From Candidatus Omnitrophota bacterium (GTDB taxonomy: Bacteria > Omnitrophota > Omnitrophia > Omnitrophales > Omnitrophaceae), in NCBI GenBank assembly GCA_016209715.1, contig JACQVP010000014.1:1-58993 (forward strand): 58,993 bases of DNA. The letters are read 5' to 3'. The notes under the pieces were generated by a model. That model ran no database searches and was not told the origin of the DNA. It saw only the letters and a list, made by a program, of their open reading frames with translations. Shown here piece after piece: positions 1,479 to 44,679 of this stretch. Each line of letters opens with the position of its first letter. Positions within the stretch are counted from its first letter, which is position 1. The translations under genes and the position numbers were made by a program.

Positions 1479-1480
1479 CC

Positions 1481-1960
1481 TCAATGGCCGCAGCAGCCGG
1501 AATGGGAGCCGCCCGAAACCGGTTCGGACATTTTGCGAAACACGACCTCCCTTTCCTCGGGACCGCAAAGAGAATCGATCAGCGGATACAGGATTTGTTC
1601 TTCTTTGCCGTTGTGGGCCGTGAGGACCGAGATCAGGAGGTCCTCCTCCGCGTCGCTCCCGGCGTCCCCGGCGGCGATCCGGTCCTGGATCTTGCCGAGC
1701 ACGGCCTTGATTTGCACGTGTTCGCTCCGCATCACCTCCGTGGGGCCGGCCCCCTGCATCCCCGTCTTTTCCTCGAAGAGGGGGAACAGAATCTCCTCCT
1801 CCCAGACGATGTGCCGTTCCAGGCCGCTCTTGAATTCCGAAAAAAACTTGCCGGCCCGTTCAAAGTCAACGTGCTTGTATTTTTTGAACTGCTTCATGAG
1901 CTCGTCCAGCCGGTCATGATCGGCGCCGTAAAACGAAGTGATGTTTCTACCCGATGTCAT
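1481..1960 (-). CDS. Hemerythrin (HHE cation-binding) domain protein with a C-terminal Cys/His tail
   Basis: H/E-rich helices (HIVWEEEILFP, RSEHVQI, AHNGKEEQILYP), a C-terminal HSGCCGH tail and a GGGAGGAGA RBS before the ATG at 1960. Confidence 0.7.
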   Translation of the reverse strand: MTSGRNITSFYGADHDRLDELMKQFKKYKHVDFERAGKFFSEFKSGLERHIVWEEEILFPLFEEKTGMQGAGPTEVMRSEHVQIKAVLGKIQDRIAAGDAGSDAEEDLLISVLTAHNGKEEQILYPLIDSLCGPEEREVVFRKMSEPVSGGSHSGCCGH

Positions 1961-1975
1961 ATTTCTCCTCCCGAT

Positions 1976-3024: not shown

Positions 3025-3263
3025 CCTCCCGCCACCGGCGGCATCAACGCGATATCGTCCCCTTCCCGCAGACGGTAAGGATGGGGAACGTAGTGTTCAT
3101 TGACCGCCATCAGCACCGGGAATCCCGGCGGCAAGGCCCGCGAAAAGCCGCAAACCCGCTGCAGCAATTCTCCGGCGGTGGCCCCATCGGAAATCTCCAT
3201 CACGCAAGACTCGGTCCCGAAAAAATTCCTGAGCTGAGCAAAAAAACTGACTTTTATCTTCAT
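3021..3263 (-). CDS. moaD: Molybdopterin synthase sulfur-carrier subunit
   Basis: 80-aa ubiquitin-like protein ending in PPVAGG (C-terminal GG). ATGA overlaps on both sides. Confidence 0.8.
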   Translation of the reverse strand: MKIKVSFFAQLRNFFGTESCVMEISDGATAGELLQRVCGFSRALPPGFPVLMAVNEHYVPHPYRLREGDDIALMPPVAGG

Positions 3264-6128: not shown

Positions 6129-6129
6129 T

Positions 6130-7143: not shown

Positions 7144-7149
7144 TTTTCT

Positions 7150-7270
7150 CCTTTCCAATTCCGCGAGCCGCCATCCCGGGCGGCGTCGCATCGGGAGGCG
7201 CCGCCGTTTCCCGCGGCGCCCTCGTCCCGTCATCCGTGGCATGAAGCTTTAGGACGTCCGGGATCGGAGT
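7150..7270 (-). ncRNA. Candidate Moco (moaA-motif) riboswitch in the moaA leader
   Basis: The minus-strand leader reads ACUCCGAUCC...GGCGCCGC-GGGAAACG-GCGGCGCC-UCCCGA...GGAAAGGAG-AUG. CUCCGA, GGAAAC and GCCUCCC blocks and a moaA-proximal position fit my memory of the motif. No covariance-model check was done. Confidence 0.4.
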
Positions 7271-7282
7271 TCAACTGTGCCA

Positions 7283-7325
7283 AGGATATCCCATGGCGGA
7301 GAGTGCGTCTGTGATGCAAATCACA
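7283..7325 (-). promoter_or_regulatory. CRP-type operator TGTGATTTGCATCACA (7310-7325), then 21 nt, then the -10-like TATCCT (7283-7288); putative moa operon promoter
   Basis: A perfect TGTGA-N6-TCACA palindrome followed by GACG, with the same geometry as three other sites in the window. Confidence 0.5.
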
Positions 7326-7327
7326 CC

Positions 7328-7672
7328 TCAAACGGAAGGAATCATTCGGACGGCAGGACGGTCGTTTACAGTACGGCAGGCCGTTTCGCATTGGGCGCAG
7401 CCGTTGCACAACTGCGCCGCCAGGACGGGTTTGGCATCGATCATGCGGAGGGCCTGGTCCCGGAGGGGGCAGGCCAGATAGCATTGCTGGCAATCCATCC
7501 CGCCCCAGGCCAGGCATTGAGCCACTTCCAGCCGGGCCTTGAGGACCCCGGCCCCGGGAGGCGAGGCGGGCGCCAAAAATCCTTGTCCCAAAGCGCGCAA
7601 TCCGTGCGCCAGAGAGCCGGGCAAGCGCTTCAGGAAATTTCTTCGGGCCTCGACTGGTAGATCCCGTAACAT
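7328..7672 (-). CDS. NapF-like ferredoxin with a vestigial Tat motif (two Cys clusters)
   Basis: ARRNFLKRL twin-arginine motif followed by a weakly hydrophobic segment. Clusters CX8CX2CX3CP and CNGCAQCETAC. ATG at 7672 behind GGAGG; the track start at 7702 is a GTG. Confidence 0.6.
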   Translation of the reverse strand: MLRDLPVEARRNFLKRLPGSLAHGLRALGQGFLAPASPPGAGVLKARLEVAQCLAWGGMDCQQCYLACPLRDQALRMIDAKPVLAAQLCNGCAQCETACRTVNDRPAVRMIPSV

Positions 7673-8565
7673 TGTTCGCAGACCTCCATTTCCGGATTCC
7701 ACTCCCGGTGCTCCGAGCGGATTCTCTGATGAACGGCCTCAGAACGAACAGGCCTCACGGCGGGGCGGAAGCCGGGGAAGCCGCACAGGGAGCAGCGAAA
7801 CCATCCCTCTTCCTTGGCGGCCAAATAATTCCTGGATCGGCGGCCGGCCGCAAGATCGATGAGCTCAGACTGAGTCCAGGCCCGGCCGTCTTCCATTTCT
7901 TTTGAAATTTCAAGCCGCGTCTCCTCCGTCCAAAACGGAAACGCCATCTCCAAGGCGCGTTCGCGACGGCCGTAAAATTCCTCCGCCATCAAATGCCCTT
8001 TCTTCCGCAGCCTGACGGCGGTGTAAAGCGACCAGAGAAACGAGAATCGTTCACGAATGACCTCGTTCTCGGCCTCGCTCCCCCCGCCCAGGGCGGGGGC
8101 CGGCGAATACCGGAAACCGGGATCCAGCATGTCCGCGAGCTGGGTCAGCTCATGTCTCAGGAAAAAATCGATGTCCCCGCGGTCCGGCGAGGTCAACAAA
8201 CTTACCCGGACGGCGATCAGCGCCGTCTTGAAAGGGCCCTCCGCATAAATCTCACCGCGTTCCTCCTTGCGCGTGAACGCGCGCCGGATGACAAAACGGA
8301 GGTGCGGCGATTGAAAGGCGCGGAATTCCAGGATGCGGTCGCGGAAGATCGAAGACATCCCGAGGCGGTCGAACCAGCGGCGGTTGAGCGTTTCGAAGGA
8401 ACCGTTGTCCGCGCCCGCGGCGGTTTCGTAGAGGTGTTCCCGCTCCCGGTAAAATTCCTCCGCGATGTCAGACCGCCCGCCGTCCCTCAGGTTTCTGACC
8501 GCAAAAAAGACGGATTCCTCGACGAGCGAGGACTCATATTCAATCTTTATTTGCGAAGCGAGCAT
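7630..8565 (-). CDS. Hypothetical 311-aa protein with a C-terminal Cys4 (CSLC...CEQC) ribbon, inside the NXR-like operon
   Basis: Long ORF with charged, non-repetitive composition. The start is trimmed to the ATG at 8565 (MLASQIKIEY). I recognise no family. Confidence 0.55.
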   Translation of the reverse strand: MLASQIKIEYESSLVEESVFFAVRNLRDGGRSDIAEEFYREREHLYETAAGADNGSFETLNRRWFDRLGMSSIFRDRILEFRAFQSPHLRFVIRRAFTRKEERGEIYAEGPFKTALIAVRVSLLTSPDRGDIDFFLRHELTQLADMLDPGFRYSPAPALGGGSEAENEVIRERFSFLWSLYTAVRLRKKGHLMAEEFYGRRERALEMAFPFWTEETRLEISKEMEDGRAWTQSELIDLAAGRRSRNYLAAKEEGWFRCSLCGFPGFRPAVRPVRSEAVHQRIRSEHREWNPEMEVCEQCYGIYQSRPEEIS

Positions 8566-9302
8566 GACACGCACCCCGCTTCCTCGGATTCCTGGACCAT
8601 CCGGACCGGGAGGTCCGGCCTTCCGGACTCGACACCCATGATGCGGCAATCCCAGGAGGCGAACGCCGCCGCCGCGCGGGCCGCGTCGGCGAGGAAGGTT
8701 TTCCCGGCCCGTTTTTCGAGCCGCGAAGCAAACGCCGGCAGCCAACGGCCCAAGTGGTCGGCCGCGAAACGCCCCGCCGCCCGGGCGCATATTTCCGCCT
8801 TCTCGGGGCCGTGATGGGCGAGCGCATACGCCTGCTTATACAGCAGGAAATACAGGAACTCGCATTCCACGGAAACATGGTCGGGCCTTTCCCGCGAACG
8901 CCCGTTCAATCGCAAACCGAAGGCCTGATAGAAGGAGCTGATGTCCGCGAGCTCCTGCGGCTGGCGATGGCTGTGCTCTTCCCCGTATTCAAGCTCGTAA
9001 GCGGGGACCTTGGCGTAGGCCGTGAACCCGAAACAATGCTCATATTGCCCGCACCAATCCTCGAGCGAAAGGCGGCCGGTCTTCCGGAACAGGTCCCCGA
9101 CGTTTTTCCTGACGCCGGATGCACCGGCCATTTTGAGAGAATGCAGCGCCTGGGACCAGGAACGGCGGTTTTCGGCGAAAAATTCCCGCACGCCTTTCTC
9201 GGCCGGATGGCGGAAGGCGAAGGCCAGCATTTGGTAGAAGTAACTCCTGCCGAATAGCCGGTCGAGCTCAGATGCTGTTTTGGTGGATGTCGGGTCGGAC
9301 AT
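8547..9302 (-). CDS. TorD/NarJ/DmsD-family redox-enzyme maturation chaperone
   Basis: ERPDHVSVECEFL (E-P-x-D-H signature), aromatic-rich helices and a position after the beta subunit. Confidence 0.8.
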   Translation of the reverse strand: MSDPTSTKTASELDRLFGRSYFYQMLAFAFRHPAEKGVREFFAENRRSWSQALHSLKMAGASGVRKNVGDLFRKTGRLSLEDWCGQYEHCFGFTAYAKVPAYELEYGEEHSHRQPQELADISSFYQAFGLRLNGRSRERPDHVSVECEFLYFLLYKQAYALAHHGPEKAEICARAAGRFAADHLGRWLPAFASRLEKRAGKTFLADAARAAAAFASWDCRIMGVESGRPDLPVRMVQESEEAGCVSCSLRK

Positions 9303-10506
9303 AAAACGGCTCCTCCACTTTCGTGCTCACGATCTTGCGGCCGTCCCGGTCGAAGCCGTTGATGGTGTCGTCGTAGAGCGCGAAGGGTTTCCCCTGGATT
9401 TCGGTCTCATAAATTTTCGGGCCGGGCTCGATCTGGTACCGGAAAATGATCTGATTCGTCTTCCGGAACATCTGCAGGACGGCCAGAAGCTCGCGATCGG
9501 GGTTCCGATAGGCCTCGATGGCATGGTCCACGCCGGGGCCGAACATTTGCTTCAGGAAGTCGCGGGAGACCCAGCGCGGCGGAATGTAATAGCCGTTGGG
9601 CTCGGTGCCGAACTGAGGATAGAGCGGCAGCGCGACCTTGGCCACTTTGACCAGATAATAAATGGGATTGTAACGGTCCTCGGCCCATTGCCCATCGGAA
9701 GCGATCTGGACCAGCCCCTGGAGCCGGATCTGTCCGATGCAGGCGGCCATGCAGCGCGTTTCCATGGGCCGGCCCTGGGTCTCCGGGTCCTTCCCTTCGA
9801 TCCGGGGATAACAGCCGATGCACTTTTCCGTCACCCGCGTGCTGGGCCGGTACATGGCTTTTTTATACGGGCAGGCCTCCACGCATTTGCGATAGCCGCG
9901 GCAGCGCGATTGGTCCACCAGCACGATGCCGTCTTCCGGCCGTTTGTAGATGGCGTTCCGCGGACAGGCAGCCAGGCAGGCCGGATAGGTGCAATGATTG
10001 CAAAGGCGAGCGAGATAAAAGAACCAGGTCTTGTGCTCCGGTAAACTCGTGCCGTCGTCGACGTAGGAGCCTTCTTTCCCCTTCGGGCCCACGGCCGTGT
10101 CTTCATAGATATTCGGAAACCGCCATTCTTCGTCCGTCGGGAGGTATCCCAAGACTCGCTGGGGCTCGGCGCCGGCCTTGGTTTTCGCCGCCTCGAAAAT
10201 CGTCTTCCCGTCGAAGACGTCCCCTTTCCATTTTTGGGCGCCGGGATTGGTTTCCTCGAGCAGTTTCAGGAGCTTGACGTCCCAGAACTGCGGATAACCG
10301 CCGTAGGGTTTCGTCTCCACATTGTTCCACCACATGTATTCCTGCCCCTTGGAGAACGTCCAGGTGGATTTGCAAGCCATGGTGCAAGTTTGACAGCCGA
10401 TGCACCGGTTCAGATTGAAGACAAAGGCGAATTGACGGTCGGGATGATGCTCCTCGTGGGGGTATTCCATCTTCCGGTTGATCTGCCAATTGAAGACCTG
10501 GCTCAT
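9268..10506 (-). CDS. Type II DMSO-reductase beta (NxrB/NarH-like) Fe-S subunit
   Basis: Four Cys groups: CIGCQTCTMAC, CNHCTYPACLAACP, CRGYRKCVEACP and CIGCYPR...CMAAC. The start is trimmed to the ATG at 10506 (MSQVFNWQINR), which overlaps the upstream stop. Confidence 0.9.
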   Translation of the reverse strand: MSQVFNWQINRKMEYPHEEHHPDRQFAFVFNLNRCIGCQTCTMACKSTWTFSKGQEYMWWNNVETKPYGGYPQFWDVKLLKLLEETNPGAQKWKGDVFDGKTIFEAAKTKAGAEPQRVLGYLPTDEEWRFPNIYEDTAVGPKGKEGSYVDDGTSLPEHKTWFFYLARLCNHCTYPACLAACPRNAIYKRPEDGIVLVDQSRCRGYRKCVEACPYKKAMYRPSTRVTEKCIGCYPRIEGKDPETQGRPMETRCMAACIGQIRLQGLVQIASDGQWAEDRYNPIYYLVKVAKVALPLYPQFGTEPNGYYIPPRWVSRDFLKQMFGPGVDHAIEAYRNPDRELLAVLQMFRKTNQIIFRYQIEPGPKIYETEIQGKPFALYDDTINGFDRDGRKIVSTKVEEPFYVRPDIHQNSI

Positions 10507-10772
10507 GACGCCCTTCTCCCCCGCCATTTGGCCCCGGCCTCTTCGATGACCGAGCGCACAAACGCGTCTCCTTTTTGCTTCCACACCCGGTACGGGCCGA
10601 CGTAAAGCGGGTTCCGGAACAGATTCAAAAGGGCGTCCTCCCCCCAGCCGTCACGCGCGAATTCCTCCGCGAAACAAAGCGCCATGTCGCGCACTTCCGC
10701 CTCCGACTGCGCAGGCAGTTCGATCCCCACCATTTCCATCGGGTCTTCCGGGTCCATTTCGTGTTTCGGCAT
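10503..10772 (-). CDS. Hypothetical 89-aa acidic protein between the alpha and beta genes
   Basis: ATG at 10772 preceded by AGGAGG. Its stop overlaps the beta start (ATGA). Sequence begins MPKHEMDPEDPMEMVGIELP...; no family recognised. Confidence 0.5.
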   Translation of the reverse strand: MPKHEMDPEDPMEMVGIELPAQSEAEVRDMALCFAEEFARDGWGEDALLNLFRNPLYVGPYRVWKQKGDAFVRSVIEEAGAKWRGRRAS

Positions 10773-10780
10773 GTTGCCTC

Positions 10781-13700
10781 CTACCCCTTGAAATAACCGC
10801 CGCTCAAATACTGTTTCATGACTTCGCTCTCGTTGGCGGGCGTGAATCCCGTAGTGGCCGGGGCCCACACGCCCTTGCCGTCCAGGCCGCCGTCCTCGGC
10901 CTTGGTCACGCGCACCAGAGTTTCCTTCGGCACGGTGTTGACCGCATGGTTGTCCGCCTCGCCGCCAAAGATGAAGGACATGAACACCTTGGCCTTGTGG
11001 AACAACGTGTCCGTCTGGTGCATCGGCATGTGCCAATTTCGCGTCACGCTTTGCTGGGAGCCGTACCGGAAATTGGCCTGATAGGCGCCGCCTTCCGACA
11101 ACGCGCGCTTGTCCGGCCGCGACTCGTGCGCCTTCACCGATTTTTCCGTGGCGATATAAGTTCCGTGTTTCATCATCACCACGTTATAAGGAAAGGCCGG
11201 GTTGAATTTGACGCGCAACATCAGGCGCGCGACTTTGTAAAATGGATCGTCGGGCCGGGCGCCGACATAGGGCCGGTCCGCCGGGTTGGCGTCCACGTAG
11301 ACGTAATCGCCGTCGTTGATGCCGAGCTCCTTGGCCGCCTGAGGGTTCATGTGCACCTGCTGTTCGCCGACTCCCGGGGTGCGCTTGTCCATGCGGTAAG
11401 GATCGCCGAAGTTGGAGTCCCAAATCTGGTGCCAGTCCACATTGCTCCAGAGCGAATGGACCCGGTGCCGGCTCTTCGGCGTGAGACAGTAGAAGCGAAA
11501 CCCTTTTTCCCACAGGAAATTCTGCGTCTGCTTCACCTCCGCCCAAGGCATCCGGATGTTGCGCACGGAGCGGTCGTCCCAATGTTCCGCCGCGGGCGCG
11601 ATGCCGTAATCATTGGGCCGGACGTAGGGATTGGAGCTCACGATGACGTTGGGCAGATACGGCGTGGCCTCGGGCCCTTCCCGGTGCACGATGAAATTCT
11701 CTCCGTATTCGATGGCCTCGGCCACGTCGGTGTAGGCGTGGAGACGCCCGGTGTCGGTGTGGAACGGCTCTCCCGCGTGCACCTGCTCCCAGAAGGGGAC
11801 GCGCGGATAGGTCCGGAAGAGCATCAGGGCCCCGCCCGGAGGACCGTATTTTCCGCTCATGATGTCCGGGAGCTTGTAGCCTGCGGTGGTGGTGGAGGTT
11901 TCCAGCAGGCGCTGGATATAGACCTCCCGGTTTCCCTCCAGCGCGAATTTCCAGTAATCGCGGAAGCGTGCGTCTCCGGTCAGTTCCCCGAGCTTTTCGG
12001 CGATCCCGGCCAGGATCATGATGTCGTCCCGGCTGTCGAACACCGGCGGGATCCCTCCCTTCCAAATCTGCAGAAAAGGATTGGAGCAGGAGGCGGTGAC
12101 CTCCAGCCCCTCGAATTCCAGCCAGCTGTTGGCGGGAAGCGCCAGGTCCGCGTATTCGATCGAGGCCGTCATCTGGATGTCGATGGAGACGATCATTTCC
12201 ACGTTGGGATTGACGTTCTTCAGCATCTCGTAGGCGTGCTTGGCGTTGTTCAGCAAGTTCACGTTGGTGAACATCATCACTTTGGTAGGGCTCGGCATGT
12301 GCGTGGCGCCGGTGAACACTTTGCGGCCGTCCTTCGGCGTGTCCACGATGAGCGGCCGGTCCCCGTGGTTCCAGTAGGCCGGCTCCTCGTCTTTGAAATA
12401 AACTTTGGCGTGCACGTCTTTGCCCGGCGCGGCCGGATCGAGGTTCGGATGGAACGGGTCTTCACCCACCCAGCCTTTGAACCCGTACCCGGTCCAGGGC
12501 GAACCCTGGAACAGGGCCGCTTTATAATTTCCGGCCCAGGTGTGGCAGCCCGAACCCGGCTTGCCGATGTTGCCCGTGAGCATGAGCGGCAGGTAGGCCG
12601 CGCGGTTCATTTCCGTGGCGTGGAAGTAATGATTGATCCCCTCGCCCTGGTGGATGGCCGCCGGCTTGATCGTCGCCAGGTCCTTGGCCAATTGCTCGAT
12701 CATCTCCCTCGGCGCCCGGGTCATTTCCACCACCGAGTCGAGGTCGTAATCCCGGAGATGGATCCGGTAAAGCGAGAAGAGGGTCATCACTTCGATTTCC
12801 CGCCCGTCCACAGTGCGGACTTTAAACGTCCCTTCCAGGGCCGGCCGGATATTTTTCCGGGCCAGCGCCGGACCGAGATCGTCGCGGGTGAGCGCGGCCG
12901 GCTGATTCCCGGCCTCGTCCCAGATCACGAAGTCGCCGATCTTGGCGTATTGTTCGTCCGTCAATCCCTGGTACTTGAAACTCGGCCCGTCTTTTTTGAG
13001 GCCCGGCCGGTAATCGGCGAAGATTTCGGCGGCGCGCAGGCGGCGCAGGTTGTCGGTCCTCACCAATAGGGGGAAATCCGTGAACTGGAGGACAAAATCT
13101 TTGTCGTACCAGCCGTTGTCCACCATGAGGCGCGTGATGCCCAGGAAGAGCGCCGTGTCCGAGGCGGGACGGATCGGGATCCAGTAATCCGACTTCGTCG
13201 CCGGGGGACTGTATTCGGGCGTGATGGTGACCAGTTTCGCCCCGCGCTCCATGCATTCGATGAACCAATGACTGTCCGTGAGCTTGTTCTCGACTAGGTT
13301 CTTCCCGTCCTGGATGATCAGCTTGCTCGACCGCAAGTCGTTGAAATCGCAATCCGAAGCCTGCAGGCCGTGGACCCAGGGATGCCCGGGGGCCTGGTCG
13401 CCGTGCCAGGTGTAGTTGGACCAAATCCTGCCGGCCTTGGCTTGATCGGGCCCGACGCCTCTCAAATGAGCGTCGAGAAGGGCCATGGTGTTCGACAACC
13501 GGTACATCCCGTATTTTCCGAAGACACCGAGCAGGCCCATCCCGCCGCGCATCTTGATCGTCCGGACCCCCGCGCCTTCCATCGGCGCGAGCATTTCTTC
13601 CGGATATCCCTCGGCCAGGAGTTTTTTCTTTCCTTCCTCTCCGCTGTACCGTTTGCCGACGGCCATCAGGCCTTTGGCGACGTAGCCCAGCGCCTGATCC

Positions 13701-14218
13701 CAGGAAACCTTCTCGAATTGGTCGGTCCCGCGGGAATCGAATTTGTATTTGGTCTTGTTTTGCGCCGTGAGCTCGGGGAACCCGTCTTCGGCCCACTGGC
13801 GCCAGCCGCGCCGGACGATGGGATATTTCAACCGGTAAGGACCGTAAAGAAGGCGATGAAACGTGAAACCTTTGGCGCATTGCCGGGGATTCCAGTTGGA
13901 CGTGGCCTTGTTACCGTAGAGGTCGCTGTAGGTCTCGTAATCGTACTGGGAACCGAGGCGCACCACGACGCCGTTGCGAACGTAGGCCTTGGCGCGGCAG
14001 GCGTGCGTGTCATTGGGAGAGCAGACCCAGGAGAAAGTGCTGTCGTACCGGTACTGATCGCGGTAGATCTGCTCCCAGTCCCGGTCCGGGTAATGAGCGA
14101 GAGGGTTGGCAATTTCCTCGACCGGCTCGAGGGCCCAAAGCGAATCTTTCATCGCCAGAGCCATGCCGGCCGCCGTGAGTCCGGAAAGTTTCAAGAAGTT
14201 ACGCCGAGTCAGTTTCAT
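10781..14218 (-). CDS. Tat-exported molybdopterin alpha subunit of a periplasmic NXR/NarG-like type II DMSO reductase
   Basis: MKLTRRNFLKLSGLTAAGMALA Tat signal. The mature protein is about 1145 aa. The FS0-type motif VCSPNDTHACRAKAYVRNG is C-x3-D-x3-C when aligned to NarG H-x3-C-x3-C. Beta, gamma and chaperone genes are adjacent. The start is trimmed to the ATG at 14218. Confidence 0.9.
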   Translation of the reverse strand: MKLTRRNFLKLSGLTAAGMALAMKDSLWALEPVEEIANPLAHYPDRDWEQIYRDQYRYDSTFSWVCSPNDTHACRAKAYVRNGVVVRLGSQYDYETYSDLYGNKATSNWNPRQCAKGFTFHRLLYGPYRLKYPIVRRGWRQWAEDGFPELTAQNKTKYKFDSRGTDQFEKVSWDQALGYVAKGLMAVGKRYSGEEGKKKLLAEGYPEEMLAPMEGAGVRTIKMRGGMGLLGVFGKYGMYRLSNTMALLDAHLRGVGPDQAKAGRIWSNYTWHGDQAPGHPWVHGLQASDCDFNDLRSSKLIIQDGKNLVENKLTDSHWFIECMERGAKLVTITPEYSPPATKSDYWIPIRPASDTALFLGITRLMVDNGWYDKDFVLQFTDFPLLVRTDNLRRLRAAEIFADYRPGLKKDGPSFKYQGLTDEQYAKIGDFVIWDEAGNQPAALTRDDLGPALARKNIRPALEGTFKVRTVDGREIEVMTLFSLYRIHLRDYDLDSVVEMTRAPREMIEQLAKDLATIKPAAIHQGEGINHYFHATEMNRAAYLPLMLTGNIGKPGSGCHTWAGNYKAALFQGSPWTGYGFKGWVGEDPFHPNLDPAAPGKDVHAKVYFKDEEPAYWNHGDRPLIVDTPKDGRKVFTGATHMPSPTKVMMFTNVNLLNNAKHAYEMLKNVNPNVEMIVSIDIQMTASIEYADLALPANSWLEFEGLEVTASCSNPFLQIWKGGIPPVFDSRDDIMILAGIAEKLGELTGDARFRDYWKFALEGNREVYIQRLLETSTTTAGYKLPDIMSGKYGPPGGALMLFRTYPRVPFWEQVHAGEPFHTDTGRLHAYTDVAEAIEYGENFIVHREGPEATPYLPNVIVSSNPYVRPNDYGIAPAAEHWDDRSVRNIRMPWAEVKQTQNFLWEKGFRFYCLTPKSRHRVHSLWSNVDWHQIWDSNFGDPYRMDKRTPGVGEQQVHMNPQAAKELGINDGDYVYVDANPADRPYVGARPDDPFYKVARLMLRVKFNPAFPYNVVMMKHGTYIATEKSVKAHESRPDKRALSEGGAYQANFRYGSQQSVTRNWHMPMHQTDTLFHKAKVFMSFIFGGEADNHAVNTVPKETLVRVTKAEDGGLDGKGVWAPATTGFTPANESEVMKQYLSGGYFKG

Positions 14219-14220
14219 GG

Positions 14221-15891
14221 TCACTCCAGCTTGAGTTCGTTCCATATGGAAACCATCTTTTGTCCGTTCCGGTCTCTGTTTTCCCCGTCCCAGACCGCGA
14301 AAGCCGCCTGGACGGGCTCTCCTTTTTTAAACGTCAGGCGCTCCGCGTCCTCCGGGCGCAGCTTGCGCCGGAAAACAACGCGCCATTTGCCGTCCTGCCA
14401 GAAGCCGCGCACCTCCACCGCTTCAGTCTTGGGAAACATCGTGGTGAAGGTGCCGATCCCGCGCGCCATCCCCTCTTCGGCGGAAGCCCGCAGGGGATTT
14501 GAAACCGGGTTGCCGGCCCCCCAACCGGTCATGCGCTCCGGATCATGCCGGGCGGTTTGGGACCGGACCGCTTCAAAGCTCGCCCCATGCGCGTAATCCG
14601 CGTCCTCCGGATAATAATCGATGCCGGTCTCGGGATATCGCGAATCGATGTCTTTCCAGCCCTCGCGGTCCTCCTGCCAGGCGGCTTTCCAATGCCAGAA
14701 GAGAACGTCTTGGGCGGCGCTTCCCATGGCGAAGAGCGGCGGATCGGATTCGGCGGAAAACTGGATCGCCGCGCCGTCGGAAAAATCCTGCGGCGCCGCC
14801 ACGGAACGGTTGGGCACGGGGTCCGGCCATTCGAGATGGATCCCGATATTTTTCCCATCGTGCGCGGCGCGCACCTCGACCGCTTCCGCGCGTTCATTTC
14901 GCCACCAGAGCGGCGTGAGCGGGACGCGGACCGGCTCGATCTTGAGCCAGGCCGCGGCCAGAGGGTCGATCTCCACGCCTCCGCGGAGGCGCTTGGCGCG
15001 GAGAGTCATCCGCTCCAACTGGGCCCGGCCTTCGGCCCCTTCGGCCGGCAAAGTCTGGACGTAATGAATCAAGTCCCAGATCTGCTCATCCGTGAAAACG
15101 CCTTGATAGCCCGGCATGGGAGAGCCCGGGAGGCCGGCCAGGACGCGGTAATACAATTCGCGGGACGACGAATCCGCTTTGAAAACGCCGGCCGTGAGGT
15201 CCCGGGGTTTTACCGGAACGCCCTGGCTGTCGATCATTCGCTGCTGGCCGTCGCCTTTTCCTTCCAGCCCGTGGCAGGGCGCGCAGGCCTTGACGAAAAG
15301 TTCACGCCCCTGGGCGAGACCCGCCGGGTCCGCGGACGTTTCGGCCGGCACCGCGATCACGGCCGCTGGATCGACCTCCTTCCGCATCATCTTCTCGAGC
15401 ACGGCCCAGGGAATTTCAGTCTTCAGCATCTCGTCCGTCAATTCCCCCTTCCCGAGATAGGCACGGGTCTCCGCCAGGGTCCGCACGTAATAGACGAGCG
15501 CCCAGCGCTGATTTTCGCTCAAGTGCTTCCAGGCCGGCATGGAGGAGCCGGGCATGCCCCGGCTGATGCTTTTGAAGAGATCCTCGTCGGTGGCGGTCAT
15601 GTCGGTCGTCGATATCAGGCGGAATTCGTCGCGGGAAAAATTGCGCGGCTTGGGATACAGGAGATACGACGCCGGACCGTCTCCTTCGCCTTTCAGCCCG
15701 TGGCAGGTCGTGCATTGCTTGAGATAAAGGTCGCGCCCCAACCGGTAAAGTTCCGGGCTAGGGACGGGTTTCACGGCGGCCTCCCGGGCGTCTATCGGCT
15801 GCCAGAACGCGAACACCGCGACGAGGACGGCAATCCCCGTGGCTGAAGCGACGGCCTTCAGAATGTCGAACCGGTCGGCGGGGTCGCTCAT
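14221..15891 (-). CDS. Membrane-anchored gamma subunit: dihaem cytochrome c fused to an EB_dh (NxrC/EbdC-like) domain
   Basis: N-terminal TM (ILKAVASATGIAVLVAVFAFW), CTTCH and CAPCH motifs each followed by a Met-containing loop, and a C-terminal half resembling NxrC/EbdC haem-b domains. Lies immediately upstream of alpha. Confidence 0.75.
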   Translation of the reverse strand: MSDPADRFDILKAVASATGIAVLVAVFAFWQPIDAREAAVKPVPSPELYRLGRDLYLKQCTTCHGLKGEGDGPASYLLYPKPRNFSRDEFRLISTTDMTATDEDLFKSISRGMPGSSMPAWKHLSENQRWALVYYVRTLAETRAYLGKGELTDEMLKTEIPWAVLEKMMRKEVDPAAVIAVPAETSADPAGLAQGRELFVKACAPCHGLEGKGDGQQRMIDSQGVPVKPRDLTAGVFKADSSSRELYYRVLAGLPGSPMPGYQGVFTDEQIWDLIHYVQTLPAEGAEGRAQLERMTLRAKRLRGGVEIDPLAAAWLKIEPVRVPLTPLWWRNERAEAVEVRAAHDGKNIGIHLEWPDPVPNRSVAAPQDFSDGAAIQFSAESDPPLFAMGSAAQDVLFWHWKAAWQEDREGWKDIDSRYPETGIDYYPEDADYAHGASFEAVRSQTARHDPERMTGWGAGNPVSNPLRASAEEGMARGIGTFTTMFPKTEAVEVRGFWQDGKWRVVFRRKLRPEDAERLTFKKGEPVQAAFAVWDGENRDRNGQKMVSIWNELKLE

Positions 15892-16049
15892 TTTTTGTCG
15901 TCCGCCCCCCCTCCGGCGGTCCGGCCCTTTTTGAATTCGCGAATCCCCTCGCCAAACGACCGCGCCATTTCCGGGATGCGCTTGGCTCCGAACAACAGCA
16001 ACAGCACTGCCAAAATCAATGCCAATTCCAACGGCCCGGGCAAATTCAT
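15888..16049 (-). CDS. tatA: Twin-arginine translocase subunit TatA/E (53 aa, below the ORF-track cutoff)
   Basis: My translation is MNLPGPLELALILAVLLLLFGAKRIPEMARSFGEGIREFKKGRTAGGGRDDKK. It has the canonical FG-x-KR-(I/L)PE hinge and ATGA overlaps with both neighbours. Confidence 0.85.
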   Translation of the reverse strand: MNLPGPLELALILAVLLLLFGAKRIPEMARSFGEGIREFKKGRTAGGGADDKK

Positions 16050-16606
16050 TTTCTTTTCCCTCCTTCCGCCGCCCTGATTTTTCGCACCAGGATCTTCTTC
16101 TCTTCCGGGTTCAGGTCACGGCTGATAGTCTTGTAGACGCTCACGTTTTCGTTATAAAGGTGATGCCGCAGCAGATAAATAAGATAGGTCCCCGTTTCCT
16201 GCATTTTTTCCAGGGACAGCAATCGTTTGCCGGCGTCATTCTCGCGGTCGACCGCCCGCAGGCTCGCGTTGAATTCGATCAAGGTCTTCTCGAAATCCGC
16301 GTGCTCCGAGCGGAGCAGGCGGATGACGGATTCCATCTTCGGTACGTGCTTTTCCAGAAACGGAAAAATGACCGTCTCTTCCAGGCGCGCGTGATGCCGC
16401 ATCACCCGGTTAAAAAAGAGCCGCAGGCGGTTGGCCTCCTTGAGATTCTTCCCGAGCGAGAGCTTCCCCTCGTATCGGATGTTGGTCAAGACGTCGGAAA
16501 GCTTTTCCGTCTCCCGGAAGCTTTCTTCATGCTCGGCCTCGAGCTCGTTCAGGCAATCGCTGAATTTGGGGGCCCGAATATTTTTAGCGATCATCTCTTT
16601 TTTCAT
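16046..16606 (-). CDS. Hemerythrin (HHE) domain protein, first gene of the NXR-like operon
   Basis: RHHARLEETVIFPFLEKH and LLRSEHADFEK His/Glu motifs; 186 aa. Confidence 0.65.
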   Translation of the reverse strand: MKKEMIAKNIRAPKFSDCLNELEAEHEESFRETEKLSDVLTNIRYEGKLSLGKNLKEANRLRLFFNRVMRHHARLEETVIFPFLEKHVPKMESVIRLLRSEHADFEKTLIEFNASLRAVDRENDAGKRLLSLEKMQETGTYLIYLLRHHLYNENVSVYKTISRDLNPEEKKILVRKIRAAEGGKRK

Positions 16607-16616: not shown

Positions 16617-16659
16617 ATGGTAACCCCGCTCGCGGCGGCCGTCTGTGATGTTCGTCACG
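16617..16659 (-). promoter_or_regulatory. CRP-type operator CGTGACGAACATCACA (16644-16659), then 21 nt, then the -10-like TACCAT (16617-16622); putative NXR-like operon promoter
   Basis: Read directly. Followed by GACG like the other sites. The predicted TSS is only about 4 nt before the ATG at 16606. Confidence 0.5.
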
Positions 16660-19756: not shown

Positions 19757-19799
19757 TATATAGCCAAAGGCTGGCAAATCGTCTGTGACGGCAGTCACA
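19757..19799 (-). promoter_or_regulatory. CRP-type operator TGTGACTGCCGTCACA (19784-19799), then 21 nt, then the -10 TATATA (19757-19762); putative bioB-like operon promoter
   Basis: A perfect TGTGA-N6-TCACA followed by GACG. The hexamer ends 5 nt before the bioB ATG, so the mRNA may be leaderless. Confidence 0.55.
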
Positions 19800-19804: not shown

Positions 19805-20485
19805 TTAGGAGAGGAGGTCGCGGAGGCCTTTTTCGTCGAGAATGGCGATGGACTTGGGCAGGATATCGATCAGCTTCGCGCGCTTCAGCTGATAAAGGTA
19901 ACGGGCGACCGTCTCGCGCGAGGTGCCGATGCGCTGGGCGAGTTCTTCCCGCGTGAAATTGACGCTCAACACGTCTTTTACGTCTTTTTTCGAGCCGGGC
20001 GCGGCCTGAGCGGAACGCATGTCCAGCAGGAACTTGGCCAGCCGCTTTTTGACGTCCTTCAGCGAAACCTCCTCGATGAGAGAGGTGAAACAGCGGAGGC
20101 GGTCGGCGAACAGGCGATTGAGGGTGCGGGCGAGTTTATGGTTGTTTTGCACCATCCTCACATAATCGTCGCGGGACAAGAAAAGAACTTTGCAGTCGGT
20201 CATGGCTTCGGCCGAAGCGGAGCAAAACCAGGTAAAAGAACCCGGATTGCAGGCGCAGGTGTCTCCCGGGCCCAGCATCTCCAGGATCTGTTCGCGGCCG
20301 GAGGACGCCGTGCGGTAAAGCTTGACCCGTCCGGAGTGGACGAAGAACACCCTCTCGCACAAATTACCTTCATGAAAAAGCAGGTCGCCTTTGGCGAACG
20401 ACTTCTCGCGCATGACCTGCTTGATCGTGCCAACTTCGCTCTCCGACAGGCCTTGGAAGAACGGGATACCTTTGGGGATCTCCAT
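19805..20485 (-). CDS. Crp/Fnr-family transcription regulator with a CRP-like recognition helix
   Basis: cNMP-binding-like N-terminal half and a C-terminal HTH, ELAQRIGTSRETVARYL (RE-x3-R as in CRP RETVGR). No FNR-type N-terminal Cys cluster. Contains an internal CAC...C group (DTCACNPGSFTWFC). Confidence 0.85.
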   Translation of the reverse strand: MEIPKGIPFFQGLSESEVGTIKQVMREKSFAKGDLLFHEGNLCERVFFVHSGRVKLYRTASSGREQILEMLGPGDTCACNPGSFTWFCSASAEAMTDCKVLFLSRDDYVRMVQNNHKLARTLNRLFADRLRCFTSLIEEVSLKDVKKRLAKFLLDMRSAQAAPGSKKDVKDVLSVNFTREELAQRIGTSRETVARYLYQLKRAKLIDILPKSIAILDEKGLRDLLS

Positions 20486-25590: not shown

Positions 25591-25605
25591 AATCGCATTT
25601 TAATA

Positions 25606-25621: not shown

Positions 25622-25638
25622 ACTTCATGAAGGGGAAA

Positions 25639-32009: not shown

Positions 32010-32031
32010 CAAAGTCCCTCTTAGCTGTGCA

Positions 32032-32074
32032 AGAGTACCGTATATATACTCAGCCGAAAGTGATCGGCATCACA
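32032..32074 (-). promoter_or_regulatory. CRP-type operator TGTGATGCCGATCACT (32059-32074), then 21 nt, then the -10-like TACTCT (32032-32037); putative imcH-cbcL operon promoter
   Basis: Read directly, with the same 21-nt geometry as the other three sites. A TATATATA run at 32041-32048 is an alternative -10. Confidence 0.5.
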
Positions 32075-44678: not shown

Positions 44679-44679
44679 A

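What the first reader, a model, noticed from the sequence alone, without database searches (positions are those of the whole stretch)
7328..16606. Periplasmic NXR-like type II DMSO-reductase operon with its own tatA, hemerythrin and unassigned accessory genes
Seen: nine coupled genes in the order hemerythrin, tatA, gamma, alpha, 89-aa ORF, beta, TorD-like chaperone, 311-aa ORF and NapF-like ferredoxin. Alpha has a canonical Tat signal (TRRNFLKLSG) and is about 1145 aa. Its FS0 motif aligns as C-x3-D-x3-C against NarG H-x3-C-x3-C.

Established: Tat export, an EB_dh-type gamma subunit and the absence of NarI place it among periplasmic type II DMSOR enzymes (Nxr, Ebd, Ser, Clr, Pcr, Ddh). To my recollection, the large alpha size and the Asp-for-Cys FS0 ligand are traits of the Nitrospira/Nitrospina/anammox NxrA clade.

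Inference: the substrate and direction (nitrite oxidation, nitrate reduction or another oxyanion) cannot be read from the sequence. The context here is an anaerobe-like cytochrome island and a CRP-type promoter, which would be unusual for a classical nitrite oxidiser.
Basis: partly seen in the sequence, partly recalled or inferred. Interest (0 to 1): 0.7.

Follow-up and report, generated by a model that had tools for sequence, protein, structure and literature searches.

The report
Omnitrophota nitrite/nitrate oxidoreductase gene island
This is a complete, intact gene cluster for a periplasmic nitrate/nitrite-converting molybdenum enzyme of the same lineage as the anammox and Nitrospira nitrite oxidoreductase, carried by an uncultured anaerobe-like Omnitrophota bacterium; enzymes of this kind are already known from many such genomes, and it is still unknown whether they make or consume nitrate.

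Summary
Nine tightly coupled minus-strand genes (7328-16606) encode hemerythrin, TatA, gamma, alpha, an 89-aa protein, beta, a TorD-like chaperone, a 311-aa protein and a NapF-like ferredoxin.

Alpha matches the Kuenenia NxrA crystal-structure sequence over its full length (1854 bits, 65% identity). It keeps the Tat motif, the Cys-x3-Asp-x3-Cys FS0 site, Asn70 and the Mo ligand Asp275. Beta and the haem-b part of gamma match NxrB and NxrC.

- Gamma is a fusion of a dihaem cytochrome c to NxrC.
- The unit continues into a full molybdenum-cofactor operon (down to 1481).
- Both unassigned ORFs are conserved accessory families. The order gamma-alpha-orf89-beta-TorD-orf311 holds in all 80 related loci from at least 10 phyla, and orf311 also sits in anammox nxr clusters.
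- A CRP-type operator precedes the operon and three other promoters.

The contig is from an Omnitrophota MAG. NXR-like clusters in such lineages are already reported. The direction remains inferred; nitrate reduction is more likely here (about 0.6).

Verdict: a new member of a known kind, of moderate interest.

The parts
16645..16658 (.). CRP-type operator (cGTGACGAACATCACAGAC), about 40 nt upstream of the first gene of the NXR operon
   Evidence: The window has 6 exact GTGA-N6-TCAC sites against 0.37 expected. The same extended motif lies upstream of NXR operons in Omnitrophota loci L002, L011, L014, L018 and L001.
16046..16606 (-). Hemerythrin-1 (HHE di-iron domain, 186 aa), first gene of the operon
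   Evidence: PF01814, E 4e-11. There is a weak RIC/YtfE-like NCBIfam hit. Hemerythrins recur in NXR clusters: L001, L011, L014, L018, L141 and L145. One lies between orf89 and beta in L043/L050/L054/L070, and one is fused to orf89 in L071.
15888..16049 (-). tatA (53 aa), dedicated Tat pore subunit
   Evidence: PF02416, E 1e-15; TIGR01411 above its cut-off. tatA is present in 12 of 24 Omnitrophota loci, and tatC is also present in L144, L145 and L017.
14221..15891 (-). Gamma subunit NxrC* (556 aa): N-terminal Sec-type signal or anchor, then a dihaem cytochrome c, then an EB_dh-type haem-b domain
   Evidence: Pfam finds 2x Cytochrom_C plus EB_dh. Residues 47-281 match both halves of 6h5l_B, a Kuenenia dihaem cytochrome. 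Residues 336-556 match NxrC 7b04_C, with Met155 and Lys305 conserved. Nearly all complete homologues carry 2 CxxCH plus EB_dh.
10781..14218 (-). Alpha subunit NxrA (1145 aa), the Tat-exported Mo-bisMGD catalytic subunit
   Evidence: Matches 7b04_B at 1854 bits over its full length; 65.4% identity over 951 columns. Carries the TRRNFLK Tat motif, FS0 C-x3-D-x3-C, Asn70 and Asp275.
10503..10772 (-). orf89: small cytoplasmic accessory protein (acidic, Pro-rich N-terminus plus a three-helix bundle), always found between alpha and beta
   Evidence: No Pfam, NCBIfam, PDB or fold hit. Present in 77 of 80 genome loci at this position. The family has 493 representatives. AF2 pLDDT is 79. Fused to a hemerythrin in L071.
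9268..10506 (-). Beta subunit NxrB (412 aa, four Fe-S cluster motifs, no signal peptide)
   Evidence: Matches 7b04_A at 584 bits over its full length; Fer4_11.
8547..9302 (-). NxrD, a TorD/NarJ-type cofactor-insertion chaperone (251 aa)
   Evidence: PF02613, E 1e-15. TIGR03482 (type II DMSO reductase chaperone) at 87 bits, below its cut-off.
7630..8565 (-). orf311: conserved cytoplasmic accessory protein with a zincin-like core (degenerate HExxH...D, here HELTQ...D) and a C-terminal four-Cys zinc ribbon
   Evidence: No sequence family. AF2 pLDDT is 89. Fold hits to zinc metallopeptidases are weak (4l7a, M61, SprT; probability 0.35-0.38). Homologues sit between TorD and NxrA in anammox-type loci at 230-250 bits.
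7328..7702 (-). NapF-like 2x[4Fe-4S] ferredoxin (114-124 aa) with a vestigial RRNFLK motif
   Evidence: Weak Fer4 and NapG/NapF hits. The RRxFL motif is conserved but has no hydrophobic h-region in 13 homologues.
7311..7324 (.). Second CRP-type operator (TGTGATTTGCATCACAGAC), in the 184-nt gap before moaA
2012..7143 (-). Molybdenum-cofactor operon: moaA (6130-7143), moaC-moaB fusion (5226-6128), tauE-family anion exporter (4477-5229), moeA (3260-4480), moaD (3021-3263), moaE (2602-3024), mobA (2012-2605)
   Evidence: Pfam assignments. Junctions overlap by 4 nt. The same gene set and order follow the NXR genes in L143.
1481..1960 (-). Hemerythrin-2 (159 aa), closing the island
   Evidence: PF01814, E 9e-19. 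A hemerythrin next to mobA is also seen in L145.
19805..20485 (-). CRP/FNR-family regulator (226 aa, no FNR-type N-terminal Cys cluster), the candidate binder of the operators
   Evidence: cNMP_binding plus HTH_Crp_2. All CRP, Fnr and FixK models score below their cut-offs. A further operator lies at 19785-19798, directly downstream of the gene.
32060..32073 (.). Fourth CRP-type operator, upstream of the NrfH-like/CbcL-like multihaem quinol-dehydrogenase operon (28624-32012)

Best explanation
The locus encodes a complete periplasmic nitrite:nitrate oxidoreductase of the anammox/Nitrospira/Nitrospina lineage (NXR, equivalently a 'pNAR'). It also carries everything needed to build the enzyme.

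Assembly (inferred by homology). Alpha (Mo-bisMGD plus an Asp-ligated FS0 cluster) and beta (four Fe-S clusters) are assembled in the cytoplasm. Five kinds of helper take part: the TorD-like chaperone, the NapF-like ferredoxin, the two conserved unknowns orf89 and orf311, a di-iron hemerythrin, and a co-regulated Moco-biosynthesis operon. The alpha-beta pair is then exported by Tat, with a dedicated TatA. In the periplasm it docks onto a Sec-exported gamma subunit in which the Met/Lys-ligated haem b of NxrC is fused to a dihaem cytochrome c.

Catalysis (inferred by homology). Electrons pass along c-haems, haem b, FS4 to FS0 and Mo, in either direction. The enzyme chemistry is nitrate + 2e- + 2H+ <-> nitrite + H2O.

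Direction (inferred from context). In this organism I consider nitrate reduction the more likely physiological direction. Electrons would come from the quinol pool through NapC/NrfH-type and CbcL-type multihaem quinol dehydrogenases, which carry the same CRP-type operator. The organism shows anaerobe traits on the contig: a group-4 [NiFe] hydrogenase, multihaem cytochromes, and no oxidase in 59 kb.

Sub-confidences: NXR-family enzyme acting on nitrate/nitrite, 0.9. Architecture and maturation roles as described, 0.7. Nitrate-reducing direction, about 0.6.
For: Identity of the enzyme:
- Alpha scores 1854 bits, full length, against Kuenenia NxrA, compared with 198 or less for PcrA, EbdA and NarG.
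- Alpha is 65.4% identical to Kuenenia NxrA.
- The FS0 ligands Cys67/Asp71/Cys75, Asn70 and the Mo ligand Asp275 are conserved.
- Beta scores 584 bits against NxrB.
- Gamma keeps the haem-b ligands Met155 and Lys305, and has a dihaem domain about 40% identical to Kuenenia 6h5l_B.

A real, selected unit:
- The order gamma*-alpha-orf89-beta-TorD-orf311 is conserved in all 80 genome loci from Omnitrophota, Methylomirabilota, Binatia, Planctomycetota, Acidobacteriota, Desulfobacterota and others.
- Omnitrophota relatives L141, L143, L144 and L145 carry the same NapF-like, tatA, moaA, hemerythrin, tauE and Moco genes.
- The genes are translationally coupled.

Regulation:
- The CRP-type operator is enriched about 16-fold, sits at four promoters, and is conserved in relatives.

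Direction:
- Kuenenia NXR is bidirectional in vitro, and its nitrate reduction is faster.
- Two related clusters lie next to nrfHA, the ammonia-forming nitrite reductase genes (L145, L110).
- Relatives carry the anaerobic ribonucleotide reductase gene nrdD nearby.
- The window carries an Ech/Mbh-type hydrogenase and no oxidase.
- An Omnitrophica genome was previously interpreted as an H2-driven nitrate reducer that lacks nitrite reductase (PMC4821891).
- The cytochrome operon with NrfH-like and CbcL-like quinol dehydrogenases shares the operator.
Against: - No experiment exists on any member of this sub-clade.
- The characterised close relatives (anammox, Nitrospira, Nitrospina) use the enzyme mainly to oxidise nitrite.
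- A high-potential haem b and class I c-haems are exactly what a nitrite oxidiser needs.
- Authors studying the same family in Planctomycetota and KSB1 leaned towards NxrA (PMC10732223).
- Only one 59-kb contig of the genome was available, so oxidases or nitrite reductases elsewhere cannot be excluded.
- nrfHA adjacency was found in only 2 of about 145 loci.
- The link between the CRP-family gene and the operator is not demonstrated.
- No Nitrospira or Nitrospina reference sequence could be placed in my tree.
Confidence: 0.6

Rival explanations
1. The enzyme works physiologically as a nitrite oxidase. Nitrite is oxidised in the periplasm. Electrons leave through haem b and the fused dihaem c to a terminal oxidase under micro-oxic conditions. 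Alternatively, under anoxia they go to a nitrite, NO or N2O reductase (nitrite dismutation, as proposed for anammox NXR feeding nitrite reduction).
For: - The closest characterised enzymes are nitrite oxidoreductases.
- The Asp-ligated FS0 and the Met/Lys haem b are conserved.
- The fused dihaem domain is homologous to Kuenenia 6h5l_B. That entry holds a Kuenenia HAO-type octahaem enzyme. That the cytochrome chain is that enzyme's redox partner, and that the enzyme reduces nitrite, is from my own recollection.
- c-haem-bearing alt_NxrC proteins exist in Nitrospina.
- Authors of PMC10732223 favour NxrA for this clade.
- nxrAB-type genes of non-canonical lineages are among those reported as highly transcribed in floodplain soils.
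Against: - No oxidase, nitrite reductase or CO2-fixation gene is seen in 59 kb.
- The contig has an anaerobe-type gene content (group-4 hydrogenase), and relatives carry nrdD.
- nrfHA lies next to two related clusters.
- Co-regulation is with quinol-dehydrogenase-type cytochromes, which normally deliver electrons to the periplasm.
Confidence: 0.28
2. The enzyme acts on a different substrate (chlorate/perchlorate, selenate, DMS, an alkylbenzene, arsenite) and only resembles NXR.
For: Type II DMSO reductases change substrate within modest sequence distances. No curated NCBIfam model reaches its cut-off. The residue after the Mo-binding Y-x4-D-x11-Q motif varies among NXRs (QA here, QT in Kuenenia, QN in Nitrospira, QM in Nitrotoga).
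Against: - 65% identity and a gap-free full-length alignment to a crystallographically and kinetically characterised NXR.
- The substrate-positioning Asn70 and the ligand Asp275 are conserved.
- PcrA, EbdA and NarG score about ten-fold lower.
Confidence: 0.04
3. The cluster is a decaying or silent relic acquired by horizontal transfer and has no current function.
For: The family is patchily distributed over many phyla, which implies frequent transfer.
Against: - All 17 genes are intact and translationally coupled.
- G+C content matches the flanks.
- All catalytic and cofactor ligands are kept.
- A conserved operator is present.
- The closest relatives, at 79-91% identity, are all Omnitrophota, and in my tree they form one clade. 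This argues for vertical inheritance within the phylum.
Confidence: 0.03

Closest known systems
Kuenenia stuttgartiensis NXR-ABC (PDB 7B04; Chicano et al. 2021, PMC8387239)
   Same: Alpha, beta and the haem-b domain of gamma align over their full length (1854, 584 and 96 bits). The Tat signal is the same, as are the 3Cys/1Asp FS0 site, Asn70, Asp275 and the Met/Lys haem b. A TorD-like chaperone and an orf311 homologue sit in the cluster.
   Different: - The gene order is C-B-TorD-orf311-A in anammox-type loci, against C*-A-orf89-B-TorD-orf311 here.
- Anammox NxrC has no fused c-haems.
- No orf89 was found within 10 kb in anammox-type loci.
- Anammox NXR sits in the anammoxosome and forms tubules with NXR-T. 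I did not search for NXR-T here.
Putative NXR/NAR clusters of Planctomycetota (Phycisphaerae UBA1845), KSB1, Rokubacteria, Armatimonadetes and Elusimicrobia MAGs (PMC10732223, PMC4821891, bioRxiv 10.1101/765248)
   Same: The Phycisphaerae, KSB1 and Rokubacteria proteins belong to the same protein family at 72-75% alpha identity. Loci L066 and L071 come from the very MAG set of PMC10732223. They share the six-gene core and the same unresolved direction. For the Armatimonadetes and Elusimicrobia clusters I have only the papers' own descriptions of NXR-like genes; no sequence of theirs was compared here.
   Different: This copy belongs to the Omnitrophota sub-clade (79-91% identity). That sub-clade adds tatA, a NapF-like gene, hemerythrin and a Moco operon in cis, and uses a CRP-type operator. 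Many other lineages instead have an Rrf2-family regulator upstream.
Nitrospina gracilis 'alternative NxrC' proteins (Luecker et al. 2013, PMC3578206)
   Same: Gamma-type subunits that combine 1-3 c-haem motifs with the DMSO-reductase haem-b domain. They were proposed to hand electrons between NXR and the respiratory chain. The same paper lists a 'putative zinc finger' protein conserved in Kuenenia, Nitrospira and Nitrospina clusters. Its equivalence to orf311 is my inference.
   Different: In Nitrospina these proteins are extra copies beside a plain NxrC inside nxrABC operons. Here the fused form is the only gamma and is the first structural gene. No direct sequence comparison with Nitrospina was possible.
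Respiratory nitrate reductase NarGHJI and archaeal/bacterial periplasmic pNar
   Same: Same superfamily, cofactor set, chemistry and TorD/NarJ-type chaperone. pNar is also Tat-exported.
   Different: There is no NarI. FS0 carries Asp/Cys where NarG has Cys/His. NarG scores only 109 bits. No NarB/NarC Rieske/cytochrome-b module is present.
Kuenenia dihaem cytochrome c of PDB 6H5L chain B
   Same: Both c-type domains of gamma (residues 47-281) align to it at E 6e-37.
   Different: In Kuenenia it is a separate protein. The 6H5L entry also holds an HAO-type octahaem enzyme, and that the cytochrome is this enzyme's redox partner is from my own recollection. Here it is covalently fused to NxrC.

Membership tests
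Periplasmic NXR lineage of type II DMSO reductases (anammox/Nitrospira/Nitrospina type) | Catalytic subunit alignable over its full length to a characterised NxrA, and much closer to it than to Pcr, Ebd, Nar, Ser or Clr | tested here: met
   1854 bits and 65.4% identity to 7B04_B, against 198 (PcrA), 173 (EbdA) and 109 (NarG). In the NJ tree the Omnitrophota clade lies inside a large clade that is sister to the anammox group.
Periplasmic NXR lineage of type II DMSO reductases (anammox/Nitrospira/Nitrospina type) | Twin-arginine signal on alpha; beta without a signal (hitch-hiker export) | tested here: met
   The MKLTRRNFLKLSG motif gives TAT_signal hits. Beta starts MSQVFNWQ, with no signal.
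Periplasmic NXR lineage of type II DMSO reductases (anammox/Nitrospira/Nitrospina type) | FS0 ligated by 3 Cys plus 1 Asp (C-x3-D-x3-C) | tested here: met
   C-SPN-D-THA-C aligns to Cys67/Asp71/Cys75. The structural basis is given.
Periplasmic NXR lineage of type II DMSO reductases (anammox/Nitrospira/Nitrospina type) | Asp ligand to Mo (Y-x4-D motif) and a substrate-positioning Asn | tested here: met
   YTWHGD aligns to Asp275, and Asn70 is conserved.
Periplasmic NXR lineage of type II DMSO reductases (anammox/Nitrospira/Nitrospina type) | EB_dh-type haem-b gamma with Met/Lys ligation, and no NarI | tested here: met
   PF09459 is present. Met155 and Lys305 equivalents are conserved. No Nitrate_red_gam hit was found among the ORFs scanned.
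Periplasmic NXR lineage of type II DMSO reductases (anammox/Nitrospira/Nitrospina type) | Measured nitrite-oxidising and/or nitrate-reducing activity | not testable with these tools
   Needs enzyme assays or isotope tracers.
Chemolithoautotrophic nitrite oxidiser (functional guild) | Terminal oxidase or another acceptor above +430 mV, plus a CO2-fixation pathway in the same genome | tested here: inconclusive
   None was found in the 59-kb window, but the rest of the genome was not available.
Anammox nxr cluster | Gene order nxrC-nxrB-torD-orf311-nxrA with a plain NxrC | tested here: not met
   Anammox-type loci L081-L097 show that order. The window has C*-A-orf89-B-D-orf311.
NarGHI respiratory nitrate reductase | Cytoplasmic alpha without a Tat signal, His-ligated FS0, and a NarI membrane subunit | tested here: not met
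   A Tat signal is present. FS0 has Cys/Asp in place of His/Cys. There is no NarI. TIGR01580 scores 128 bits against a cut-off of 1084.
Zincin metallopeptidases (for orf311) | HExxH catalytic motif and a recognisable zincin fold | tested here: not met
   The window copy reads HELTQ. The second His is lost in 9 of 16 Omnitrophota copies but kept in 36 of 36 anammox-type copies. Fold matches are only weak (E 0.1, TM 0.2-0.26).
NapF/NapG ferredoxins (for the 114-124-aa protein) | Four Cys clusters, and a score above the family cut-off | tested here: not met
   There are only two Cys-cluster motifs. NapG scores 37 bits (cut-off 269) and NapF 27 bits (cut-off 102). It resembles NapF in having a vestigial RR motif without an h-region.

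The most novel reading that the evidence does not exclude
This widespread C*-A-orf89-B-D-orf311 form of NXR, with its dihaem cytochrome hard-wired to the enzyme, may be a periplasmic electron hub in anaerobes that bypasses the quinone pool. Two versions are possible. In the first, it oxidises nitrite anaerobically and passes the electrons to nitrite, NO or N2O reductases (nitrite dismutation, an unproven source of nitrate in anoxic waters and aquifers). In the second, it reduces nitrate with electrons taken up through the co-regulated porin-cytochrome conduit (nitrate-dependent Fe(II) oxidation or electron uptake). In either version, orf89 and the zincin-like orf311 would be previously unrecognised, dedicated NXR maturation factors.
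Probability: 0.12. Interest if true: 0.8.

Novelty: new member of a known kind. Interest (0 to 1): 0.4.

Why it matters
Nitrite oxidoreductase is the only known biological source of nitrate. Metagenome surveys routinely count 'nxrA' hits as nitrification potential.

This locus belongs to a very large, phylum-crossing set of NXR-like clusters (528 related stretches in the species-representative genome collection) found in organisms that do not look like nitrifiers. If these enzymes run as nitrate reductases, nxrA-based budgets overestimate nitrite oxidation. If some oxidise nitrite without oxygen, they could explain the anoxic nitrate production proposed for oxygen-minimum zones (from my own knowledge; not checked in the papers read here).

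The locus itself adds no new principle. It does give a clean, complete example showing the fused c-haem gamma subunit, the full maturation gene set, two conserved proteins of unknown function that are obvious targets for NXR assembly studies, and a defined operator that could be used to find out which signal switches the enzyme on.

Tried and rejected
- Exact look-up of the window's alpha, as both the 1154-aa and the 1145-aa form, in the contig index found nothing on record. The source sample and the rest of the genome therefore could not be reached.
- FNR-box search (TTGAT-N4-ATCAA, up to 2 mismatches): 30 hits against about 17 expected, and none well placed. The best hit (16269-16282) lies inside the hemerythrin gene. 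I rejected it in favour of the CRP-type motif.
- The sigma-70 promoter and terminator scans were uninformative in this 61% G+C DNA.
- orf89 and orf311 gave nothing significant in Pfam, NCBIfam, profile-versus-PDB sequence searches or Foldseek against the PDB. The 'zinc metallopeptidase' reading of orf311 is kept only as a weak lead.
- A word-indexed homologue search for orf89 and orf311 returned only close 'hypothetical proteins'. Cluster look-ups of 10 orf89 representatives gave no named organism apart from one Verrucomicrobiota MAG.
- I could not obtain Nitrospira, Nitrospina, Nitrotoga, Thermogutta or Methanoperedens sequences. The tree is neighbour-joining, rooted on the most divergent metagenome group, and has no labelled nitrifier references other than Kuenenia.
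- Luecker et al. 2010 (PMC2922143) is not held in the library. The Asp observation is cited through Chicano et al. instead.
- A search for nrfA/nrfH next to NXR clusters found them in only 2 loci. This is supportive but not general.
- I considered and rejected a recent horizontal insertion, because there is no G+C discontinuity.

Full report
**1. What is in the sequence**

The window is a 58,993-bp contig whose alpha-subunit protein is identical to an NCBI entry from a 'Candidatus Omnitrophica bacterium' MAG (P0001, longest contig 58,993 bp).

- hemerythrin, 16046-16606
- tatA, 15888-16049
- gamma, 14221-15891
- alpha, 10781-14218
- an 89-aa ORF, 10503-10772
- beta, 9268-10506
- a TorD-like chaperone, 8547-9302
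- a 311-aa ORF, 7630-8565
- a NapF-like ferredoxin, 7328-7672/7702

None has an internal stop. Successive genes overlap by 4-43 nt or are at most 8 nt apart.

**2. Identity of the enzyme**

Against all PDB sequences, alpha aligns end to end with Kuenenia stuttgartiensis NxrA (7B04_B) at 1854 bits. The next best hits are perchlorate reductase PcrA (198), ethylbenzene dehydrogenase EbdA (173) and NarG (109). Identity to Kuenenia NxrA is 65.4% over 951 well-aligned columns.

The alignment places the window's C-SPN-D-THA-C on Cys67, Asn70, Asp71 and Cys75, and its YTWHGD on the Mo ligand Asp275. Chicano et al. (PMC8387239) show crystallographically that Asp71 is an FS0 ligand, and that NarG and EbdA instead have His at the Cys67 position.

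Beta matches NxrB (7B04_A) at 584 bits over its full length. The C-terminal 220 residues of gamma match NxrC (7B04_C), with the haem-b ligands Met155 and Lys305 conserved. The N-terminus of alpha carries a textbook twin-arginine motif, and beta has no signal.

All tested defining features of the periplasmic NXR lineage are therefore met. The NarGHI features (NarI, His-FS0, cytoplasmic alpha) are not. No curated NCBIfam model reaches its cut-off. This reflects the lack of a model for this lineage rather than divergence.

**3.

(a) Gamma is a fusion. Residues 47-281 are a dihaem class-I cytochrome c whose two halves both align (E 6e-37) to chain B of PDB 6H5L. That entry holds a Kuenenia HAO-type octahaem enzyme; that the cytochrome chain is its redox partner is my recollection. 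A hydrophobic Sec-type signal or anchor precedes this domain.

(b) The unit does not stop at 7328. A 184-nt gap follows, and then moaA, moaC-moaB, a TauE-family exporter, moeA, moaD, moaE and mobA, mostly overlapping by 4 nt. A second hemerythrin lies at 1481-1960. The island is therefore 17 genes long (1481-16606).

(c) A CRP-type palindrome with extended consensus TGTGA-N6-TCACAGAC occurs six times in the window, against 0.37 expected. Four copies sit in promoters:
- 40 nt upstream of the operon's first gene (16645-16658)
- in the gap before moaA (7311-7324)
- just below a CRP/FNR-family regulator gene (19785-19798; gene 19805-20485)
- upstream of an operon for an NrfH-like 6-7-haem protein and an 11-haem::FdnI-type cytochrome b (32060-32073)

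The same motif precedes NXR operons in Omnitrophota relatives L002, L011, L014, L018 and L001.

**4. Relatives and synteny**

A scan of one genome per GTDB species found 528 stretches encoding relatives. The best 80 are 72-83% identical. They come from Omnitrophota (the closest), Methylomirabilota/Rokubacteria, Binatia, Planctomycetota (Phycisphaerae), Acidobacteriota, Syntrophobacteraceae, Latescibacterota, Hydrogenedentota, Sumerlaeota, Gemmatimonadota and others.

In every locus long enough to judge, the order is gamma-alpha-orf89-beta-TorD-orf311. Nearly every complete gamma has two CxxCH motifs plus the EB_dh domain.

Annotated contexts of four further Omnitrophota genomes (L141, L143, L144, L145) show the same accessory set: a NapF-like gene, tatA (sometimes with tatC), moaA, hemerythrin, and in L143 the identical moaA-moaCB-tauE-moeA-moaD-moaE-mobA series. 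The window is therefore a typical Omnitrophota NXR island, not an oddity.

A metagenome scan using the Kuenenia NxrA sequence as query returned anammox-type loci (85-97% identical to Kuenenia). Their order is nxrC-nxrB-torD-orf311-nxrA, usually with a c-haem-bearing gamma-like gene further upstream.

orf311 is therefore shared with anammox clusters. It most probably corresponds to the 'putative zinc finger' protein that Luecker et al. listed as conserved among Kuenenia, Nitrospira and Nitrospina. The fused gamma resembles their 'alternative NxrC'. orf89 is found only where alpha is directly followed by beta: the window's clade and three more divergent groups (L110, L113/L114, L119-L122). It was not found within 10 kb in anammox-type loci.

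In a neighbour-joining tree the window sits inside an Omnitrophota clade. That clade lies within the large multi-phylum clade, which is sister to the anammox group plus an unidentified 65%-identity group. The tree has no labelled Nitrospira or Nitrospina references.

**5. The accessory proteins**

orf89 has no match in Pfam, NCBIfam, PDB sequences or PDB folds. Its family has 493 representatives at 50% clustering, all short proteins and all 'hypothetical' where named. The model (pLDDT 79) is a disordered acidic MPYxDPDPxDP head followed by a three-helix bundle.

In the Sumerlaeota locus L071 it is fused to a hemerythrin domain. In Planctomycetota loci L043, L050, L054 and L070 a hemerythrin gene is inserted between orf89 and beta. 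This ties the hemerythrins at both ends of the window's island to the same process.

orf311 also has no sequence family. It folds confidently (pLDDT 89, pTM 0.77) into a beta-sheet-plus-helix core, followed by a helical domain and a four-Cys ribbon. Its best, weak fold matches are zinc metallopeptidases (4L7A, an M61 peptidase, SprT; probability 0.35-0.38, TM at most 0.26).

The family motif is HExxHxxDMLDP. It is intact in 36 of 36 anammox-type copies. The second His is replaced in 9 of 16 Omnitrophota copies, including this one (HELTQ); Glu139 is kept in all but one copy (an Asp in one Omnitrophota copy) and Asp145 is invariant. I therefore do not file it as a peptidase.

The NapF-like protein keeps an RRxFL motif but has no hydrophobic h-region, and carries two [4Fe-4S] motifs. 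This is reminiscent of cytoplasmic E. coli NapF (my own knowledge).

My inference is that TorD, orf89, orf311, the NapF-like protein and the hemerythrins act in the cytoplasm on apo-NxrA/NxrB before Tat export, in cofactor and Fe-S insertion, protection from NO or O2, or proof-reading. None of this is shown.

**6. Direction of catalysis**

Kuenenia NXR oxidises nitrite (61 nmol/min/mg) and reduces nitrate (1.5 umol/min/mg) in vitro. The chemistry therefore allows both directions, and the partners decide.

Arguments for nitrate reduction here:
- The contig carries a group-4 energy-converting [NiFe] hydrogenase (40708-48466), cytochrome-c maturation genes, a multihaem/porin-like cluster and no oxidase.
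- The NXR operon shares its operator with NrfH-type and CbcL-type quinol dehydrogenases, which usually feed electrons outward to periplasmic reductases.
- Relatives have nrdD nearby, and in two cases (L145, L110) nrfHA sits immediately beside the cluster, giving a nitrate-to-ammonium route.
- Speth et al. interpreted an Omnitrophica genome as an H2-dependent nitrate reducer lacking nitrite reductase, and noted a TauE-family exporter associated with nitrate reductases. A tauE gene is embedded in the window's Moco operon.

Arguments against:
- The nearest characterised enzymes serve nitrite oxidation.
- The high-potential haem chain suits an oxidase role.
- Authors working on the same family in Planctomycetota and KSB1 tentatively favoured NxrA, while stating that direction cannot be assigned.
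- I saw only 59 kb of the genome.

I put nitrate reduction at about 0.6, nitrite oxidation at about 0.28, and other substrates or non-function at below 0.1.

**7. Novelty and verdict**

NXR-like clusters in Omnitrophota/OP3 and in many other non-nitrifier phyla are already documented, and the proteins are in public databases. The locus is a new member of a known kind.

It is a complete and instructive member. It shows a hard-wired dihaem-c::NxrC gamma that is standard in a clade spanning more than ten phyla, two conserved accessory families without any assigned function, recurrent hemerythrin linkage, and a defined CRP-type regulon connecting NXR, Moco synthesis and multihaem quinol dehydrogenases.

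The open question, whether these enzymes consume or produce nitrate in anoxic habitats, is important. This sequence alone does not make it more testable than earlier reports did. Interest: 0.4.

Noticed in passing
window 22667-32687: This stretch looks like a porin-cytochrome extracellular-electron-transfer set. It holds a 716-aa signal-peptide protein with no Pfam family (possibly an outer-membrane barrel), a 7-haem lipoprotein (24814-25590), a sigma-54 response regulator and histidine kinase (25639-28634), an 11-haem protein fused to an FdnI-type cytochrome b (CbcL-like, 28624-30531), an NrfH-like 6-7-haem protein (30498-32012) and a 4-haem cytochrome (32157-32687). CcsA/ResB cytochrome maturation genes lie next to it (20527-22637).
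   Followed up: partly
window 40708-48466: Energy-converting group-4 [NiFe] hydrogenase or Mbh/Ech-like complex. It includes a fused 30-kDa/49-kDa large subunit of 853 aa, a small subunit with a 2x[4Fe-4S] domain, and NuoH-like and NuoL-like membrane subunits. This fits an anaerobic, H2-cycling lifestyle.
   Followed up: partly
window 33171-40481 (+): A giant 2436-aa ORF with GH94 supersandwich and catalytic domains at its C-terminus (cyclic beta-1,2-glucan synthase or cellobiose-phosphorylase type). A 1732-aa antisense ORF overlapping it has no family and is probably spurious.
   Followed up: no
window 4477-5229; L143 19539-20285: A TauE/SafE-family anion exporter is embedded between moaCB and moeA in the Moco operon, with 4-nt overlaps on both sides. 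It occupies the same position in another Omnitrophota genome. Its role next to a periplasmic enzyme is unexplained; nitrite or sulfite export, or oxyanion handling for Moco, are possibilities.
   Followed up: partly
L071 5161-6090; L043 14296-14949; L050, L054, L070: orf89 is fused to a hemerythrin domain in a Sumerlaeota MAG. In several Planctomycetota MAGs a separate hemerythrin gene is inserted between orf89 and nxrB. This is a gene-fusion link between the unknown small protein and di-iron hemerythrins.
   Followed up: yes
L043, L053, L062, L064, L066, L068-L070, L072, L073, L141 and others, about 200-600 nt upstream of gamma: An Rrf2-family regulator gene (the family that includes NsrR and IscR) lies directly upstream of the gamma gene in more than 20 related loci from several phyla. 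The window's lineage uses a CRP-type operator instead.
   Followed up: partly
L145 19849-21811; L110 4047-5740: nrfH-nrfA, encoding the ammonia-forming cytochrome c nitrite reductase, lies immediately beside the NXR-type cluster in two loci. This suggests a nitrate-to-ammonium route in those organisms.
   Followed up: partly
L098-L109, L112, L116, L117, L124, L127, L128 (metagenome contigs): An unidentified group of NxrA genes, some on contigs whose record prefixes I recall as marine metagenomes (not checked), is 64-67% identical to Kuenenia NxrA. They have the anammox-like order nxrC-nxrB-torD-orf311-nxrA, with NapF-like and moaA genes downstream. The organism was not determined.
   Followed up: no
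window 16655-19751: Directly upstream of the NXR operon, under a further CRP-type operator, lie bioB (348 bits, above its cut-off), a spore-photoproduct-lyase-like radical-SAM gene and an unusually short (333 aa) protoporphyrinogen-oxidase-like flavoprotein. The SPL-like and bioB genes are also near NXR clusters in L011 and L018.
   Followed up: no
window 417-1568: A ThiH/HydG-like radical-SAM gene (TIGR02351 at 276 bits and HydG at 251 bits, both below their cut-offs) lies at the far end of the island, next to hemerythrin-2. Its function is unclear.
   Followed up: no
window 19805-20485: The CRP/FNR-family regulator lacks the FNR N-terminal Cys cluster. It has an unusual C-x-C-x8-C-x9-C group inside the effector-binding beta-roll (residues 77-98), which may be a metal, Fe-S or haem sensing site.
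   Followed up: no
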